Origin: Octopus vulgaris
Lineage: Eukaryota
Reading direction: 5' to 3'
DNA length: 64,000 nucleotides
Assembly: GCA_951406725.2 (NCBI GenBank)
Contig: OX597823.1
Span: forward strand, 57,660,001 to 57,724,000
The translations under genes were made by a program, and so were the position numbers. Of the stretch, positions 3,626 through 57,068 are shown piece after piece. Positions within the stretch are counted from its first letter, which is position 1. Every line of letters starts with the position of its first letter. The notes beneath the pieces are model-generated. The model saw nothing but the letters and a program-made list of their open reading frames with translations. It was not told where the DNA came from and did no database searches.

Positions 3626-4926
3626 TACGATAAGGTACTAAAAAGATACCAGAATTTTGCAATATTTTTTTTTATTCAATTATTTTTAAATGCTTACACT
3701 TTTATCGGTTTCAAAGTAATCTCTATTCGAAGCAGTCCTAGAACTCTTGCGAAGTGATGCCTTTTAACGCCGCCGTCGTTTTTTCTTCACCTCTTCCTCA
3801 TCGGCAAAAAGTTTTCTTTTAAGGACTTTTTTCCATTCGTGGAAACCAAAAGAAAAACAAAAAAAGCTGCAGGAAGCCTGATCGGGTGAATAGTGAGGCT
3901 GGATAAGCGGAGTCATGCTATTTTTGGTCAAAAACTGTCTCACACTGAGGCGACGTACTCAGGTGCATTGTTGTGATCAAACCACCACTCTCCACTCTGC
4001 TACAGTCCGGGGCGTTTTCGTGTAACCGCGTGTTGCAAACACTTCACAACTTCCAACTAAAATGTCGAATTAAAAGTTTGAGCCGGAGGAACATATTCTG
4101 TGTGGACAATTCCTTTCGCATCGATAAAACAAATCAACATCGTCTTGAGACTGGACTTCACTTCAAGCACTTTTGGAGGACGTGGTGACAGTGAATGCTT
4201 CCATCGACTTGATTGCTGCTTCGTTTCTGGGTCGTGGCTGTAGCACCAGCCTTCGTCACCAGTAATGAGCTTCGAAAGAAGTTTCGGATCAACTTCCAAC
4301 TGTTCTCTCAGTCCACAACAGGCATTTAGTCGTGACTGCTTTTGACCTTCCGTGAGCAAGTGAGGCACGAATTTTGATGCAACTCTTTCCATTTGCAATT
4401 CCTCAAAATTCGTTAGCAGGAGCTCCAGGATACACCAGTCATATCAGCAAATCTGTCAATTGTTCGGCGACGTTCCTCCAAGATCTGTTCATGAATTTTC
4501 GTGATGTTTTCGTTCGTTCAGGAAGTCGACGGTTGCCGGAGATGAGGTTGGTTTTGAAGTGACAAGTAATCATTCCTAAAGCATGAATTTCACTCGTAAA
4601 CTTGTGTTTTGTTCATGATAACGTCATTATCATCTATTAGAAGCATAAGAAATGTTTCGGCCACCGTTTACCCCAGCAGGAAACTAAATTTTACGAAAGC
4701 ACGCAGTCCCTTCCACTCAGTCGTCGCAAAAATCGACGAATAGCGAAGAAGCACTGGCAAATAAAGACCCACCACATGGCAGTACAACTTTACAAGGTGA
4801 CCCAGGTCGGCAGACTGCTGCTTGAGAGTCACATCAATTGGCTCCTTGCAGCGGAAGCTTGGACTGCGACGGGCTTGTCGCACAGAGAACGTTTCCACTT
4901 ACTTTACTTTTGGGTACCGCTTCGTA
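3626..4926 (-). mobile_element. Full-length (about 1.3 kb) decayed mariner (DD34D) transposon
   Basis: Imperfect TIRs tacgataaggtactaaaaaga / tacttttgggtaccgcttcgta with TA ends; ORF 4057-4398 contains KFVPHLLT and LITGDEGWCY; downstream HNNAP and HYSPDQ motifs in broken frames. Confidence 0.9.
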
Positions 4927-6471: not shown

Positions 6472-7625
6472 TATTGGGTTGGCAACTAAGCTCCCGCCGT
6501 TTTTTTAAACTTAAATTTTTTTTAAATGTTTAATAGAAGAATAACAAATTAATCAATAATGTATTCACCTTTGTTGTTAACAAATACTTCCCAACGTTCA
6601 ACAAGATTTTCGATACCTCGTTGGTAGAAATTCCTTGATCCAACCAAGCTCTCAATTCTACATCAGTATTTAATGAAACTCTGCACATAGCATTTGAAAA
6701 AGATCGAAAGAGGTGGAAGTCCGTTGGTGCTAAATCAGGGGATTACGGCGGGTGTGGCAGCTCTTCCCAGCCATGCGTTTGAATGGCTTCGTTGGTCATA
6801 TTGGCGATATGAGGGCGGGCGTTGTCGTGCAGCCGATCTCCATGCTGCCGATTAAGTTTTTCCTTTTCAATAGCCGTCTTGAGTCGTTCCATTTGTTGAA
6901 CATAGATTTCAGCGTTGAACGTTTGGTTCCGGCCAAGCAATTCGTAATGGATAATCCCTTCCCAGTCCAACTATACGCACAACATCGTTTTACGCGGATG
7001 AAGATCTTGTTTCACGCGCCGTGTCGCTTGTTTACCGCGGCTAAGCCATTCCTTACTCTACTTCATATTGATGTACAGGCACCATTTTTCGTCGCCAGTA
7101 ACGATTCGGTAAAGAAATCGTTGCTTGAGTCCAAGAGTTGAGCGGTGACGAGCAAGCAAGCCAAAGGAGATTGTGGCTCGTTGATTTTTGTTGTTGTCAC
7201 TTAAAGCATGCGGAACACATGCTCCATACTTCGGAAGCTTTCCCATCGAGTGAAGATGTTACTCTATAGCAGTGTGGGACCATTCCATTCTTTCTTCCAG
7301 TTCCCTTGTTTGACGAAAATTTTCATGCAAAAGTTGGTTTAATTGCTCTTCATTAATCTCAACTGGACGGCCATAACGAGGTGCGTTTTTGAGGTCAAAT
7401 TTTCCATTTTTGAACTTGGCTTACCAATCACGCGCGGTTCTTTCAGCTATGGCACCCTATCCATACACAGCACAAATGTCGCGAGCAACTTTTGCGCCCT
7501 TAGAACCTTGAGGAAAAGCAAAAAGGAGGTGTCGAAAATGCTCGTTTTTCTTAACTTCACATACCATTTTAATGATCTGAAAATAAGCAAAAATTAACTA
7601 AAATTAACTACGAAAAAAAAAAAAG
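6472..7625 (-). mobile_element. Decayed mariner transposon (second family)
   Basis: TIR-like tattgggttggcaactaag; motifs VPHALS, IVTGDEKWCLY, LHDNARPH, PHPP*SPDLAPTDFHLFRS across frameshifts. Confidence 0.9.
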
Positions 7626-7866: not shown

Positions 7867-7949
7867 TTTTCGACATATGTTTCGAAGGCTGCATATTCAT
7901 AATTGCGAAGGAATAAGGAGTATATTATGCTGCTTTCTCATCAGGAAAA
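7867..7949 (-). ncRNA. Type I hammerhead ribozyme, intact core
   Basis: Minus strand: ttttc CTGATGA gaaagcagcata..tatgcagccttc GAAA catatg TC gaaaa; stem I 5 bp, stem II 10 of 12 pairs, palindromic stem III, GUC cleavage triplet. Confidence 0.8.
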
Positions 7950-36885: not shown

Positions 36886-37487
36886 GCGCGTGTGTGTGTG
36901 TAGTTGAGTATGAATGGGCGTAAAGCTTTTAGGAGTATGTCCCAAAAATGTTGTGATGGTGCTTGTATGTATTCTGTTGTCTATAGGTTCTATCTTCTTC
37001 CCTTGTTCTATGTTTATTGAGACATTCAGGATGTATGAGGTTGTTGGTCGTAAATCGAGGGTTTCTTGAGTTTCTATGATGATTATTCATATTATGGTCT
37101 CTGTGTTGTCCGTATTTTACTTGTCTTTTTTTCCATGTATTCATCCATCTAGGGTACTTGGTACTATGAGTTGGGTATTTTCCTAAATTATGAATATTGT
37201 ACTAATATTTAATGCTTGTTCATGCAAAGCGTAGCATTTCACAGAATATGGGACTTAGCTACACAGTGTAAATGAATATTCATTTTCATAGGACTTTTAA
37301 CTTTGAACTTCGAACTCTTTTCTATTTTTCAGTGATGAACGCACCAGCCCCGTTTTCTTATTTCTTCCATCCAACTTCCTAAAGTTGACATCTTAGAAAG
37401 GTCACCAGCCCTTTTGAGAAAATGTATTTATTTACAAATATATTGATAAGTATACAATGGAAAGAAAATAGAAACAAATGAGAAAGA

Positions 37488-38116
37488 ACCAGAGATAAGG
37501 AAACCATGATGGTCCTCTGGTGGACATTCGTCCTCAGTCGCTTGGATTACTGCTCACAGCTATGGTCACCCACCAGTGTAAAATTAACAGCGAACCTTGA
37601 AGCAATCCAGAGAAGATTCACAAAGAAGATCATCTCTTTGCAACAGCTCAGCTACTGGGAAAGGTTGAAACAGCTAAGACTCTACTCCCTGGAGAGAAGA
37701 CGGGAGAGGTATGCAGTAATATATGTCTGGAAGATCCTGGAAGGAATTGTGCCAAATTTTGGCATTGTAAGCTACACCAATGCTAGAACGGGACGACGCT
37801 GCATAGTGCCAAAGATCCCAGCAATGCCATCACGCTTCAGGACCAGCTTCTGCAACAGCCTGGGTTTCAGGGGCCCACAGCTTTTTAATATTCTCCCAAA
37901 GAGTCTGAGGAACTTGCACAAAGTGGATGTAGCGGTTTTTAAATCAAAGCTGGACATCTTCCTGTCAAGAGTCCCAGATGAACCTACCTCACGACAGGAG
38001 GTGCAAATGAGAGTAGCTATATCAAACTCCATTCTTCACCAAGTGCCACATATTAGACGAGGTTCGTCGTAATAACAGTGTAGCACAAGACGGCGGTGCA
38101 TCAGCATGAAACTAGG
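37488..38116 (+). mobile_element. 5'-truncated CR1-like LINE, open ORF2 C-terminus (37506-38072, 188 aa)
   Basis: SRLDYCSQLWSP, LEAIQRRFTK, SYWERLKQLRLYSLERRRER, FKSKLDIFL are typical CR1-group post-RT motifs; ends in a poly(A)/(TA) tail. Confidence 0.92.
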
Positions 38117-42846: not shown

Positions 42847-43535
42847 GAGGTAGGTGAGGAGAAACGGGAGAAGGGTGACGGCGGGGCGTGGTCTGGCAAG
42901 GACGGTGTGAATAGTGGTGAGGGGACATCCACGAAGGATGAAGTAGCGAACCATGAGTTGAGACAAGTCTCAAAGTTACTGCAGAGCCTGCGCAGACGGA
43001 GAAATTGTGAGTAGGGGATGGAGAGCTTGATGTTTTTAGGGAGGGAGGAGGAGAAGTTGAGGTATGAGTGTAAGTCTATGTGTTTGTAGTGGATGGAGAT
43101 GCTGAGAGTGGAGTGATGAATGCTGGCTGAAATGTCGAGAAAGGCGATCGATGTGTTGGAAATATTGCAGGAGTATTCGAGGGCAGGATGGAAAGATTTG
43201 ACAAAAGAGAGGTAGGAGTCTCGCTGTTCGCTGGAGAGCAAGGTCGCACCGATGCGGTCGTCAATATAACAATCGTATAGTTCGAGAGTGAGACCTGTGA
43301 ATCTTGAGAATATTTGGGCCTCAACGTAGCCAACGAACATGTTCGCATAGTTGGGGACCATTCTCATTCCCATGGCCACTCCCGAGCATTGGTGGTAAAA
43401 ATCACCCGTTAACGAGAAGCAATTAAGAGAGCGAACAAGTTCGGCCAGACGAAGAAGCGTGAATGTGTCAGGTTGAGGGTTAGGTCGATGGTCAAGTTAG
43501 TGTTTGAGGGCAAGAAGCCCCTCGTGATGTGGGAT
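42847..43535 (-). mobile_element. Penelope-like element reverse transcriptase fragment (pseudogene)
   Basis: IPHHEGLLAL..YHQCSGVAMG..PNYANMFVG..YIDD..FLDI..YLNFSSSLPKNIKLSIPYSQFLRLRRLCS are diagnostic PLE RT motifs. Confidence 0.93.
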
Positions 43536-43536
43536 C

Positions 43537-43638
43537 TAGCTTTATAAGACCCTAACGTTAAATTCAACTTACAATGAAAGTAAACAGTTTGCTTTAGAAG
43601 CGTTTAAATGTATTTAACGTTCGGGTCTTATAAAGCTA
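43537..43638. repeat. 102-bp element with 27-bp inverted arms (MITE-like)
   Basis: tagctttataagaccctaacgttaaat / atttaacgttcgggtcttataaagcta, one mismatch, TA at both ends. Confidence 0.8.
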
Positions 43639-44757
43639 TTTATAAATCCTAAAATTGTAGAACAATTCTTTATTGGACAGTTTAGCTTAGAGGTAAAAAA
43701 ACCTAACGCGTAATCACAGAGATGTGATTTCGAGTCTCATGGCTGACCGTTAACGAATGTTTTTGCAATATATGGATTGTTTATCCTGGTCATGCTATTG
43801 TATTAGCATAATCATGCGTTTGAGAATAAATTATTTCTGTATCTTTCAATATATATATATAGTTACTCAGGGCGCCGCGCTGCGGAACTGAACCTCAAAA
43901 CACCGTGTTTGGCAAGTGCATTTTTCAAGCGTGCATCCAAGTTTGCACGTTTATCTATGTTTTGTATCCTGCATGAGCAGTGCTTACCTGACTGAAAATT
44001 TAATGTAAAGCCTAGGTGTTAACGTATGAAACACATTTGGTAGAATACCTTATAGCATAATTCTAACTATTATGCTCTAAATTTACGAACCGTTGGGATC
44101 CATTTTGCATTTCCTCATTCCGGGATTGATTACAAAAATGATGGTGCCGGATTGGTGATGCTATTAGGGTAACTGGCAAGACGTCCTTTTGCAGTTTCTT
44201 TCGAGAGACCCATGCTAAGGCAAGTGACCATGTCCAGCGACTGAAGATCTATTCATTAAATTTTTAGTATTGTATATTTTTATTTGTTTATGTCAACCGG
44301 TCGAGCGTATACATACAAGGAATTCGAATAGCTGCTTAAGAGAATCACCAATTTGGAATATATAAATATATCCTACAACGTTTGATTTATTTCATCAGTT
44401 TCTACAAACAAATGCTTATGTGTGTATGTTTGTATGTATGTATGTATGTATGTATGTATGTATGTATGTATGTATGTATGTATGTATGTATGTATGTATG
44501 TATGTATGTATGTATGTATGTATGTATGTATGTATGTATGTATGCATGTACGTATGTATGTATGTATGTATGCATGTATGTATGTATGTATGTATGTGTG
44601 TATGTATGTATGTATGTATGTGAGTGTTTGTGTGTAATGCATGTATGTGTGTAAGTATATATGTATTTCATAATGTATAGATGTGTAAATATGCACGCTT
44701 ATAGACAAGAATATGTAAATATATGTATGCGCACATACATACGATATATTATATATG

Positions 44758-50727: not shown

Positions 50728-51138
50728 AGGCGCAGGAGCGGCTGTGTGGTAAGTAGCTTGTTTACCAACCACATGGTTCCGTGTTCAGTCCCACTGCGTG
50801 GCACCTTGGGCAAGTGTCTTCTACTATGGCCTCGGGCCGACCAATGCCTTGTGAGTGGATTTGGTAGACGGAAACTGAAAGAAGCCCGTCGTATATATGT
50901 ATATATATATATATATATGCGTGTGTGTGTTTGTGTGTCTGTGTTTGTCCTCCTAGCATTGCTTGACAACCGATGCTGATGTGTTTATGTCCCCATTACT
51001 TAGCAGTTCGGCAAAAGAGACCGATAGAATAAGTACTGGGCTTACAAAAGAATAAGTCCCGGGGTCGAGTTGCTCGATTAAAGGCGGTGCTCGAGCATGG
51101 CCGCAGTCAAATGACTGAAACAAGTAAAAGAGTAAAGA
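50728..51138 (+). mobile_element. SINE family A, full length, young
   Basis: Near-identical to 56649-57068. Confidence 0.95.
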
Positions 51139-53076: not shown

Positions 53077-53532
53077 AGGCGCAAGAGTGGCTGCATGGTA
53101 AATAGCTTGCTTACCAACCACATGGTTTCAGGATCAGTCCCATTGCATGACACATTGGGCAAGTGTATTCTACTATATAGCTTTGTGAGTGGATTTGGTA
53201 TGCGGAAACTGATAGAAGCCCGTTTTATATATATATATATATTTATATGTATATATATGTGTGTGTGTGTGTGTGTATGTGTGTGTGTGTGTGCGTGTGT
53301 GTGCGTGTGTATGTGTGTGTGTGTGTGAATGTATATGTTTGTTTGTCTGTGATTCTCACCTCAACATCGCTTGACAACCGATGCTGGCGTGTTTACGCCC
53401 CCGTAACGTAGCGGTTCGGCAAAAGGGACGGATAGAATAAATACTATGCTTTTAAAGAGTAAGCTCTAGGATTGATTTGCTCGACCAAAGTCGGTGCTCT
53501 AGCATGGCTGAAACAAATAGAAGAATAAAAGA
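53077..53532 (+). mobile_element. SINE family A
   Basis: Head, internal microsatellite and tail all present. Confidence 0.88.
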
Positions 53533-53565: not shown

Positions 53566-53771
53566 TTCCTTTACTTGTTTGACTGAGGCCATGCTGGAGC
53601 ACTGCCTTTAGTCGAACAAATCGACCCCAGGGCTAATTCTTTGTAAGCTTAGTTCTTATTGTATCGGTATCTTTTGCCGAACCGCTAAGTTACGGGGTCG
53701 TAAACGTACCCACATCTGTGGTCCAGCGATGGTGGAGGGACACAAATAATTACATGCATACACACACACAT

Positions 53772-53970: not shown

Positions 53971-54368
53971 CTGCGTGTAACATATTTTATTTATATATAT
54001 ATATGTGTGTGTGTTTGTGTGTGTATATATGCATGTATGTATGTGTATGTATATCTATCCATCTATCTATCTCTATATGTATCTATCTATATATATATCT
54101 ATCCATCTATCTATCTATATATGCATCTATCTATATATATATATTAATAAATATAAGGGTAGCGAAAAATTCAAGAAAAATTATTCTCCGCTACCAGCGG
54201 TCTAGTGAGAAAGAAAAGATAGTCAGAGACTATATAATATACATTCAACAATATTAAGGAATGGCCCTAATAGGTCATTCGACTCACTAGAAAGAGCAGC
54301 CAAACTCAAACCGCTAAATAGTTGTAACTTTGAAATAGAAAGAGAAATAAAAACATTTACCCTTTTCA

Positions 54369-54464
54369 TCTGTGGACTATGCATAGTTTCGACAAACTTC
54401 GGTAAAAAAATTAAATTAAATTAAATTAAATTTATTTACAACTGGCGTGTCTCATCAGCAAAGA
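54369..54464 (-). ncRNA. Type I hammerhead ribozyme, intact core
   Basis: Minus strand tctttg CTGATGA gaca..tgtc GAAA ctatgcatag TC cacaga; one mismatch in stem I. Confidence 0.75.
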
Positions 54465-54664
54465 AACCAAAGGCGACAGCAGAGAAGCCTCGAGTCTAAA
54501 TACTCTAAATTTTCAAAATCCACCGCCAACGCGCGGTCTTCTCAGCAGCAAATATAACCTGCTGATTTAATTTCAAAATTAGCCCAAAAATCATCAATTA
54601 AAAAATATAAGGGTAGCGAAAAAATTTTAAAAAGATTATTGTGGATATGTACTAGACCTCGGTT

Positions 54665-54760
54665 TCTTTGCTGATGAGACACGCCAGTTGTAAATAAATT
54701 TAATTTAATTTAATTTAATTTTTTTACCGAAGTTTGTCGAAACTATGCATAGTCCAGAGA
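54665..54760 (+). ncRNA. Type I hammerhead ribozyme, intact core
   Basis: tctttg CTGATGA(54671-77) gaca..tgtc GAAA(54739-42) ctatgcatag TC cagaga; stem I 6 bp with one GU, stem II 4 bp plus a long AU-rich extension, predicted cleavage after C54754. Confidence 0.82.
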
Positions 54761-55110
54761 TGAAATGGGTAAATGTTTTTATTTCTCTTTCTATTTCAAA
54801 GCTACTACTATTTAGCGGTTTGAGTTTGGCTGCTCTTTCTAGTGAGTCGAATGACTTATTAGGGCCATTCCTTAATATTGTTGAATGTATATTATATAGT
54901 TTCTGACTATCTTTTCTTTCTCACTAGACCGCTGGTAGCGGAGAATAATTTTTCTTGAATTTTTTCGCTACCCCTTATATTTATTAATTGATGATTGTTT
55001 GGCTAATTTTGAAATTAAATCAGCAGGTTACATTTGCTGCTGAGAAAACCGCGCGTTGGCGGTGGATTTTGAAAATTTGTAGTATATATATATATATATA
55101 TATATATCTA

Positions 55111-55173
<63 letters not shown>

Positions 55174-55239
55174 GTGTGTATGTATGCATATATATGTATG
55201 CATATATATATATATATATAAAGAAAGAAGGAAAGAAAA

Positions 55240-56648: not shown

Positions 56649-57068
56649 CAGGAGTGGCTGTGTGGTAAGTAGCTTGTTTACCAGCCACATGGTTCCGGGT
56701 TCAGTCCCACTGCGTGGCACCTTGGGCAAGTGTCTTCTACTATAGCCTCGGGCCGACCAAAGCCTTGTGAGTGGATTTGGTAGACGGAAACTGAAAGAAG
56801 CCCGTCGTATATATCTATATCTATATATATATATATATATGCGTGTGTGTGTTTGTGTGAGTGTGCTTGTCCCCCTAGCATTGCTTGACAACCGACGCTG
56901 GTGTGTTTATGTCCCTGTTACTTAGCGGTTCGGCAAAAGAGACCGATAGAATAAGTACTGGGCTTACAAAAGAATAAGTCCCGGGGTCGAGTTGCTCGAT
57001 TAAAGGCGGTGCTCCAGCATGGCCGCAGTCAAATGACTGAAACAAGTAAAAGAGTAAAAGAGTAAAAG
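56649..57068 (+). mobile_element. SINE family A, full length, young
   Basis: Complete head to (gtaaaaga)n tail. Confidence 0.95.

What the first reader, a model, noticed from the sequence alone, without database searches (positions are those of the whole stretch)
54143..55085. Retrozyme-like unit of about 454 nt with a hammerhead ribozyme, in tandem and as an inverted circular permutation
Seen: a non-coding unit reads S1-S2-S3-S1(start) with a period of 454 bp (54143 to 54597). After a 16-nt linker comes an inverted copy that reads S3-S1, so it starts at a different point of the same circle. Each copy has a complete type I hammerhead (CUGAUGA, GAAA, GUC, palindromic stem III ACUAUGCAUAGU, long AU-rich stem II insert). 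Known: metazoan non-LTR retrozymes are tandem units with type I hammerheads that yield circular RNAs, and Penelope-like elements carry hammerheads in tandem or inverted pseudo-LTRs. Inference: this is a non-autonomous, ribozyme-processed retro-unit copied from a multimeric or circular RNA, possibly by a Penelope RT (a PLE RT fragment lies at 42847-43535). The head-to-head arrangement could also form about 330 bp of dsRNA.
Basis: partly seen in the sequence, partly recalled or inferred. Interest (0 to 1): 0.8.

Follow-up and report, generated by a model that had tools for sequence, protein, structure and literature searches.

The report
Penelope-pasted hammerhead retrozyme, two-armed insertion
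This is one copy of a many-copy, protein-free repeat of about 474 bases that carries a hammerhead self-cutting RNA motif and sits in a TA microsatellite as two back-to-back arms with the insertion pattern of Penelope-type jumping genes, so it is likely an ordinary new member of the known animal retrozymes, copied by a borrowed Penelope enzyme.

Summary
The repeat and hammerhead are real, but three details need correcting. The family unit is about 472-475 nt; 454 is this copy after a ~19-nt loss. The '16-nt linker' is unit sequence, so the arms abut directly (54640/54641). The minus-strand hammerhead has a stem I mismatch. Public runs show a high-copy, ORF-less family (769-1,048 contigs in three of four DNA runs) whose copies close on themselves at a ~472-nt period, join 5'-to-5' at variable points, and end at the same two 3' sites, 97 nt apart, beside (TA)n. 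Partial tandem + inverted 5'-truncated copy + one-sided tail is the published Penelope-like-element (PLE) insertion signature, so the 'circular permutation' is the PLE tail and does not show a circle. Best reading: a non-autonomous PLE, i.e. an animal non-LTR retrozyme, a link already proposed in print (10.64898/2026.07.22.740005). Cleavage, circularity and the helper enzyme are untested; the nearby Neptune-type RT fragment is unlinked. This scan has already noted similar families elsewhere in this genome, one of 474 bp (e1-8822049). New member of a known kind.

The parts
54143..54596 (-). Arm 1: one full unit (454 nt, lacking ~19 nt just 5' of the hammerhead); its 3' end (site A, 54143) abuts (TA)n
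   Evidence: same 3' end + (TA)n in run X14 loose end behind 54973
54597..54640 (-). 44-nt 5'-truncated stub of the preceding unit: the partial-tandem pseudo-LTR of arm 1
   Evidence: 38/44 to 54143-54185; unit-to-unit junction also in X5 rec 25 and X2 joint 54625>54194
54641..55085 (+). Arm 2: inverted copy (445 nt) abutting arm 1 5'-to-5', starting 30 nt before the hammerhead core and ending at site B beside (TA)n
   Evidence: same 3' end + TA in 2 contigs of run X2 (loose end before 54506)
54641..54660 (+).
   Evidence: loose ends before 54471 in X1 (4 contigs) and X3 (6 contigs)
54665..54760 (+). Type I hammerhead motif; core at 54671, predicted cut after C54754; stems I 6 bp, II 4 bp + 53-nt AU-rich insert, III 4 bp + tetraloop (palindrome)
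   Evidence: no variants listed in 54731-54760 in four runs
54369..54464 (-). Second hammerhead copy; core at 54458, predicted cut after 54375; U-C mismatch in stem I (54372)
54989..55085 (+). 97-nt one-sided 'tail' between the two fixed 3' ends; same sequence as 54500-54596 in arm 1; predicted three-way junction (z -1.3 / -1.9, weak)
   Evidence: variants at 55027, 55031, 55036, 55056-55058 fall in predicted loops and 55022 keeps a G-U pair (one search read)
54934..54972 (+). Hairpin just 5' of end site A
   Evidence: z -3.56, 0 of 200 shuffles fold as well
54471..54499 (-). Segment joining the tail end to the pre-hammerhead segment; present here only in arm 1
   Evidence: (X1 rec 5)
53990..54142 (.). 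Left flank: (TA)n/(TG)n/(TATC)n microsatellite, target site; no separate target duplication discernible
   Evidence: sequence
55086..55219 (.). Right flank: (TA)n(TG)n microsatellite, target site
   Evidence: sequence

Best explanation
The locus is one insertion of a high-copy, ORF-less ~474-nt repeat with a type I hammerhead motif, laid out as two 5'-to-5' arms in a TA microsatellite, and it was likely written by the reverse transcriptase-endonuclease of an autonomous Penelope-like element acting in trans (a non-autonomous PLE, i.e. an animal non-LTR retrozyme). Steps. (1) Shown: unit closes on itself without an ORF at a 472-475-nt period; copies end at two recurring 3' sites 97 nt apart next to (TA)n; 5' ends vary and meet in inversions. 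(2) Inferred from PLE biochemistry (PMC11167929): the PLE protein binds a longer-than-unit RNA, cuts AT-rich DNA on both strands and starts reverse transcription inside the RNA at two sites; one DNA end primes at site A, the other at site B, so one arm carries the tail. (3) Inferred: each cDNA stops early, arm 1 after passing one unit junction (stub + unit), arm 2 at 54641; the ends are joined head to head. (4) Untested: the hammerhead cuts multimeric transcripts to monomers, which may ligate to circles as in mussel and coral retrozymes. Whether the template of this insertion was a circle or a linear multimer is open; the two arms differ more in tail + stub (8/133) than in the shared core (6/326; Fisher P 0.03, post hoc), which leans slightly to a mixed multimer or a template switch.
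For:: 1048, 820 and 769 contigs laid in X1, X2, X3 (6 in X5), summed depth 5-8 x 10^4 over 54205-54274 against 22-170-deep single-junction contigs; 8 of the 9 joints in table 5 (plus one more listed only in 5c) skip from the arm-1 region to the arm-2 region, i.e. other 5'-to-5' inversions with different end points (mapped); tandem junction in X5 rec 25 and X2. X14 rec 11 links 55028-55088 to 54730-54788 across 113 nt (472-nt period, no room for an ORF); X14 ends at site A + (TA)n; X14 rec 12 shows another head-to-head junction; 0 variant positions listed in 54731-54760 versus 24 in 54761-54867. Literature: layout matches PMC8557442 (Fig. 2 legend: partial tandem, inverted 5'-truncated copy, tail at one end, microsatellite bias) and PMC3846280 (two direct + one inverted pLTR, head-to-head most frequent); PMC4209133 reports paired hammerheads 100-700 bp apart on opposite strands as truncated PLEs; retrozyme = non-autonomous PLE proposed in 10.64898/2026.07.22.740005. 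The host carried EN+ PLEs.
Against: No genome is held, so arrays, copy number and a helper were not seen directly; the runs are relatives (most contigs 90-95% alike) and summed depth is not a copy number. Only 2 of the 8 inversion joints have 30 or more letters on the short side, and the tool warns about shorter ones at 80% likeness. Only ~23 of ~309 loose ends were shown, so a minority branch into a coding ORF cannot be excluded; X12 rec 1 (632 nt) has 535 nt upstream of 54730 that lie on nothing in arm 2. The tail (97 nt) is longer than the 30-40 bp in print. The active hammerhead fold is not the predicted ground state (1.8-2.4 kcal/mol above MFE; stem I pair probability <=0.01), Rfam does not score it, and 8 of 9 Xenopus retrozyme dimers did not cleave in vitro. 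No multi-unit array with two hammerheads in one orientation is present here.
Confidence: 0.75

Rival explanations
1. The arms are truncated ends (pseudo-LTR plus 5' tail) of an ordinary protein-coding PLE, and ORF-less 474-nt junctions are only secondary deletion products.
For: Same layout is made by coding PLEs; X12 rec 1 and X17 rec 16 carry a variant hammerhead end, and these two runs show no cover over the tail (54956-55088), with 535 nt of unlaid sequence upstream in X12 rec 1; earlier notes on other genomes found such stubs (unchecked).
Against: The tail-to-hammerhead junction, where an ORF would sit, is closed in arm 1, in 10 contigs of X1/X3 and in X14 rec 11; tail depth in DNA runs is of the same order as the rest of the unit; no unit motif among 4+3 tested in the Craig 2021 supplement held as text, which includes Octopus Hydra and Naiad consensus sequences.
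Confidence: 0.12
2. The family is PLE-mobilised but the hammerhead is an inert passenger: transcripts start ~30 nt before the core, no cleavage or circle occurs, and tandem junctions come from read-through or template jumps.
For: No listed 5' arm end falls at the cut site 54755; arm 2 starts within 1 nt of where the segment lost from arm 1 begins; in the anole PLE cleavage was dispensable for insertion in vitro and no RNA-seq reads ended at the cut site (PMC11167929); weak predicted fold.
Against: The 3' half of the core and stem III show no listed variant in four runs while the flank varies at 24 of 107 positions; relatives carry C at two positions where this copy has U in stem I, turning U-G into C-G pairs (loose ends). 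The region 54641-54729 was skipped by the read-laying tool, so ends there could not be counted.
Confidence: 0.1
3. A local inverted duplication or assembly fold-back of a single-copy sequence.
For: Only one locus in the 64-kb window.
Against: Arms differ at 6 substitutions + 2 indels in 328 nt and have different ends; hundreds of related contigs in runs of several organism labels.
Confidence: 0.02

Closest known systems
Metazoan non-LTR retrozymes (Cervera and de la Pena 2020, PMC7229834: passages and section 14 read; Li, Clavereau and Pollet 2026, 10.64898/2026.07.22.740005: parts 1-3 of 5 read)
   Same: ORF-less AT-rich unit of a few hundred nt (their range 51-972; 150-450), type I hammerhead with palindromic stem III, many dispersed copies, host with EN+ PLEs.
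   Different: Here only 1.1 units in one orientation plus an inverted arm, so it fails Li et al.'s 'active' test (two consecutive hammerhead units); 53-nt AU-rich stem II insert and 4-bp stem III; circular RNA not shown; those papers' text that I read does not describe inverted arms or fixed paired ends.
Insertions of endonuclease-bearing Penelope-like elements (Craig et al. 2021 PMC8557442; Arkhipova et al. 2013 PMC3846280; passages read)
   Same: Partial tandem forming a pseudo-LTR, adjacent inverted 5'-truncated copy head to head, one-sided tail, (TA)n target without discernible duplication, hammerhead in the repeat.
   Different: No ORF; tail 97 nt rather than 30-40 bp; helper clade unknown (Neptune, Hydra and Naiad are all tied to microsatellite or (TA)n targets in that paper).
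PAc, Poseidon element of Anolis carolinensis (PMC11167929, passages read)
   Same: Two reverse-transcription start sites inside the RNA that bound the tail; AT-rich target cut on both strands.
   Different: PAc is coding, its start sites are adjacent in an AC-rich stem-loop and its hammerhead overlaps the ORF start; here the sites are 97 nt apart in AU-rich sequence.
Non-autonomous Chlamys elements such as MRC1 (PMC8557442, passage read)
   Same: Non-coding PLE derivatives that make pseudo-LTRs and head-to-tail copies.
   Different: Green algal, mostly without hammerheads, with 3' similarity to a known autonomous partner; no partner identified here.

Membership tests
Type I hammerhead ribozyme | Core CUGANGA / GAAA / NUH with stems I-III in type I order | tested here: met
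   arm 2 fully paired, arm 1 with one stem I mismatch; strict chance 0 in 40 shuffled windows
Type I hammerhead ribozyme | Match to a curated Rfam hammerhead model | tested here: not met
   none; the 53-nt stem II insert probably defeats the models (inference)
Type I hammerhead ribozyme | Self-cleavage at H17 | not testable with these tools
   Needs in vitro transcription; predicted fold is not the ground state
Metazoan non-LTR retrozyme | Non-coding unit of ~150-970 nt, low GC, one type I hammerhead per unit | tested here: met
   unit 472-475 nt
Metazoan non-LTR retrozyme | Head-to-tail tandem units | tested here: met
   Unit junction in both arms and in X5 rec 25, X2, X14 rec 11
Metazoan non-LTR retrozyme | At least two consecutive hammerhead-bearing units ('active' per Li et al. 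2026) | tested here: inconclusive
   Not met at this locus (1.1 units); contigs too short and no genome held to test elsewhere
Metazoan non-LTR retrozyme | Many dispersed copies | tested here: met
   769-1,048 contigs in 3 of 4 DNA runs of relatives, many distinct junctions
Metazoan non-LTR retrozyme | Accumulates as unit-length circular RNA | not testable with these tools
   Only contigs of runs guessed to be RNA; these show no strand, end or circle
EN+ Penelope-like element insertion | Partial tandem + inverted 5'-truncated copy, head to head | tested here: met
   8 of 9 joints table 5, only 2 with side >=30
EN+ Penelope-like element insertion | Two recurring 3' ends giving a one-sided tail of 30-40 bp | tested here: inconclusive
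   Two ends recur (site A in 1 contig of X14, site B in 2 contigs of X2) but the tail is 97 nt and the counts are small
EN+ Penelope-like element insertion | AT-rich / microsatellite target | tested here: met
   TA-rich loose ends in X2, X5, X12, X14, X17
Autonomous PLE | RT + GIY-YIG ORF between the repeats | tested here: not met
   No ORF in the unit; tblastn of 7 PLE proteins hits only 42933-43742

The most novel reading that the evidence does not exclude
The 97-nt structured tail is the cis-element that lets a protein-free ribozyme RNA hijack a Penelope enzyme: the dimeric protein holds it and primes the two cut DNA ends at its two borders, one site per end. At this locus the arms record a transcript that starts ~30 nt before the hammerhead (54641) and a template switch at that point, so tandem units would be built by jumping between RNA ends or molecules rather than by rolling round a ribozyme-made circle, which would revise the rolling-circle model of animal retrozymes.
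Probability: 0.2. Interest if true: 0.6.

Novelty: new member of a known kind. Interest (0 to 1): 0.32.

Why it matters
Animal retrozymes are proposed to be moved by Penelope-like elements, but the 2026 preprint rests on co-occurrence and repeat homology in vertebrates (31 vertebrates, 3 insects, 1 coral) and lists the mobilisation mechanism as open. An ORF-less unit carrying the full PLE insertion footprint is direct genomic support, and its two fixed ends give a ready substrate for the published in vitro PLE assay. The value is incremental: the class, the layout and the link are in print, and this scan has noted the same pattern in several families of this genome. Recurrent head-to-head arms would also yield long dsRNA on read-through, a possible editing or silencing substrate (predicted only).

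Tried and rejected
Whole genome: none held. Rfam: nothing at gathering, only unrelated weak hits at E<=10. Exact 19-nt hammerhead pattern: 0 in metagenome contigs, 0 in viral contigs, 1 in prokaryote genomes (L001), which matches only over the 19 nt and is chance. Sequencing runs: no RNA holder listed on record; the four 'RNA?' runs are guesses, so one search is used for structure only, not for expression, and A>G / T>C counts there say nothing on editing. Lack of cover over 54641-54729 and 54400-54441 is the tool's repeat skipping. Pfam gives no family for the RT fragment alone; its PLE nature comes. Link between RT fragment and unit: rejected for lack of evidence (10.6 kb apart, no hammerhead or shared DNA). 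Second hammerhead at 7944: no homology to the unit beyond the core. Unit motifs in the Craig 2021 supplement: 0 hits. Earlier-finding look-ups by sequence and by relatives: nothing, so identity with e1-8822049 rests on length and layout only. The bacterial promoter scan is uninformative for an animal. The circular fold of arm 1 is moderately stable (-108.4 vs -92.5 +/- 5.4 in 60 shuffles) but is not evidence of a circle. The 'opposite strands' joint 54263/54525 was left out of the inversion count because its orientation is ambiguous.

Full report
Observation. The window is microsatellite-rich animal DNA. Nothing else in the window matches the unit. A descriptor scan finds a type I hammerhead on + (core 54671, cut after 54754, stems 6/4/4 bp plus tetraloop); the strict version had 0 hits in 40 shuffled windows. 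The minus-strand copy (core 54458) has one stem I mismatch. Rfam scores neither. Neither arm has an open frame over 71 codons.

Orientation. Read in the hammerhead sense, arm 1 runs 54640 to 54143 and arm 2 runs 54641 to 55085. Their 5' ends meet in the middle and both 3' ends abut (TA)n. Arm 1 is a 44-nt stub plus one unit and ends at site A (equal to 54988 in arm 2). Arm 2 starts 30 nt before the core and runs 97 nt past site A to site B.

The family. No genome is held, so I used public runs. Twenty of 24 listed rows hold part of the stretch, under five organism labels, best share 0.22; they are relatives, not the source. Laid at 80% likeness, three of four DNA runs give 1048, 820 and 769 contigs, the fourth 6. 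Summed depth is 5-8 x 10^4 over 54205-54274, while contigs with a private junction are 25-170 deep; hundreds to thousands of copies is my inference, and the tool warns that summed depth is not a copy number. Four results matter. (a) Ten contigs (4 in X1, 6 in X3) continue from 54471 into sequence that matches 54641-54669 at 22 and 23 of 29 positions by eye. The 'linker' is therefore unit DNA, the arms abut at 54640/54641, arm 1 has lost ~19 nt (a 5-nt direct repeat flanks the loss), and the unit is 473-475 nt. (b) X14 rec 11 joins 55028-55088 to 54730-54788 across 113 nt, a 472-nt period with no room for an ORF; X5 rec 25 and an X2 joint show the other unit junction. (c) Eight of nine joints in table 5, and one more in 5c, skip from the arm-1 region to the arm-2 region, which means other 5'-to-5' inversions with different stops (mapped); X14 rec 12 shows another. 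Only two of the eight have 30 or more letters on the short side, so each alone is weak; no 3'-to-3' joint is listed, and one ambiguous joint was left out. (d) Site A followed by (TA)n recurs in one X14 contig and site B followed by TA in two X2 contigs. Only about 23 of 309 loose ends were shown and 24 of 57.

Is the hammerhead kept by selection? In four runs no variant is listed over 54731-54760 (GAAA, stem III, cut site, stem I 3' strand) against 24 variable positions in the next 107 nt. Loose ends show C where this copy has U at two stem I positions, making C-G pairs. X2 rec 14 spans the whole motif with its AU-rich insert. Against activity: the active fold lies 1.8 (arm 2) and 2.4 (arm 1) kcal/mol above the MFE and stem I has near-zero pair probability in the model. 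Stem III could form in a monomer (4 bp) or as a 12-bp dimer duplex.

Comparison with print. PMC8557442 (passages) describes PLE insertions as 5'-truncated partial tandems with an adjacent inverted truncated copy, a 30-40-bp tail at one end and microsatellite targets that hide duplications. PMC3846280 (passages) gives the same with head-to-head inversions most frequent and shows pLTRs suffice for mobilisation in trans. PMC4209133 (parts 1-2 of 4) reports hammerhead pairs 100-700 bp apart on opposite strands as truncated PLEs. PMC11167929 (passages) shows the tail lies between two internal reverse-transcription starts, both strands of AT-rich DNA are cut, and hammerhead cleavage is not needed in vitro. 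PMC7229834 (passages, section 14) defines animal retrozymes and shows circles in mussel. The preprint 10.64898/2026.07.22.740005 (parts 1-3 of 5; supplements not seen) argues that they are non-autonomous PLEs; 1 of 9 tested dimers cleaved. The locus is thus a retrozyme-type unit with the full PLE footprint. The 'circular permutation' is the tail and would arise from any longer-than-unit template. Seven searches turned up no paper on this family or on inverted two-ended retrozyme insertions; subscription journals and repeat databases were not covered. PMC13282606 (passages) lists Penelope families in Octopus vulgaris and does not use the word ribozyme. That the host is a cephalopod is my recollection of the flanking repeats plus earlier scan notes; I did not test it.

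Circle or multimer. If both arms came from one circle they should differ evenly. The shared core differs at 6 of 326 positions, the tail at 6 of 97 (P 0.035; 5 of 91, P 0.07 without the last 6 nt) and tail plus stub at 8 of 133 (P 0.03). This post hoc test on one locus leans weakly to a mixed multimer or a template switch. Arm 2 also begins within 1 nt of the start of the segment lost from arm 1, which may mark an RNA 5' end; a slip between the 5-nt repeats explains the loss equally well. No listed arm end falls at the cut site, but the region around 54641 was skipped by the tool.

The RT fragment. 42975-43535 (-) is 52-59% identical to ORFs with RVT_1 and, in several, GIY-YIG domains (152 hits among 1249 candidates). 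Three close full-length relatives have the C-x4-C-xx-C linker before the nuclease, which PMC8557442 ties to Neptune elements and microsatellite bias. It is an isolated piece with no hammerhead nearby. It shows that suitable helpers existed, not which one.

What is left open. X12 rec 1 has 535 nt upstream of a variant hammerhead that lie on nothing in arm 2; it may be flank or a coding parent, and its letters were not shown. That keeps the 'end of a coding PLE' rival at about 0.12.

Earlier scan notes (unchecked) describe 357-360, 474, 485-495 and 557-nt families in this genome with the same two-armed layout. I had reached the PLE-footprint reading and the ~472-nt length before seeing them (notes); they agree and lower the novelty of this locus within the scan. 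The 474-bp one is probably this family, by length and layout only.

Verdict. Real; a new member of a known kind (animal non-LTR retrozyme, non-autonomous PLE). Interest 0.32.

Noticed in passing
window 7944-7872 (-), element roughly 8480-7825: A second, unrelated type I hammerhead (palindromic stem III, stems 5/3/3, long stem II insert) whose element ends ~45 nt after the cut site at (TA)n; probably the end of another Penelope-type family. No homology to the 474-nt unit and no intact ORF upstream.
   Followed up: partly
window 42933-43742 (-): Isolated RT-thumb fragment of an endonuclease-bearing PLE whose close relatives have a Neptune-type cysteine linker; ends near a (TA)n run.
   Followed up: yes
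window 54641 and 54459-54471: Arm 2 starts within 1 nt of the start of the ~19-nt segment missing from arm 1; may mark a transcript 5' end 30 nt before the hammerhead core, or be chance.
   Followed up: partly
runs X12, X17, X19, X2 laid on 54730-54830: A distinct subfamily with changes at 54761/54764/54766 that lengthen stem I and a different 54812-54840 segment; in X12 and X17 the tail is not covered and X12 rec 1 has 535 unlaid nt upstream: candidate coding parent or sister family.
   Followed up: no
window 54478-54495 and 54655-54673 (hammerhead sense): The 5' strand of stem I with its flanks is duplicated about 45 nt upstream within the unit, a possible alternative pairing partner that could switch the ribozyme off.
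   Followed up: no
window 53362-53508 / 53588-53734; 50894-51136 / 56816-57058: Inverted pair (79%) and direct pair (95%, 243 nt) of an abundant SINE-like repeat.
   Followed up: no
window 4060-4443 (-), ~7050-7600 (-), 37482-38069 (+): Mariner-type transposase remnants (PF01359, for the first; the second by eye) and a fragment resembling the C-terminal part of a LINE reverse transcriptase (label recalled; no Pfam hit).
   Followed up: partly
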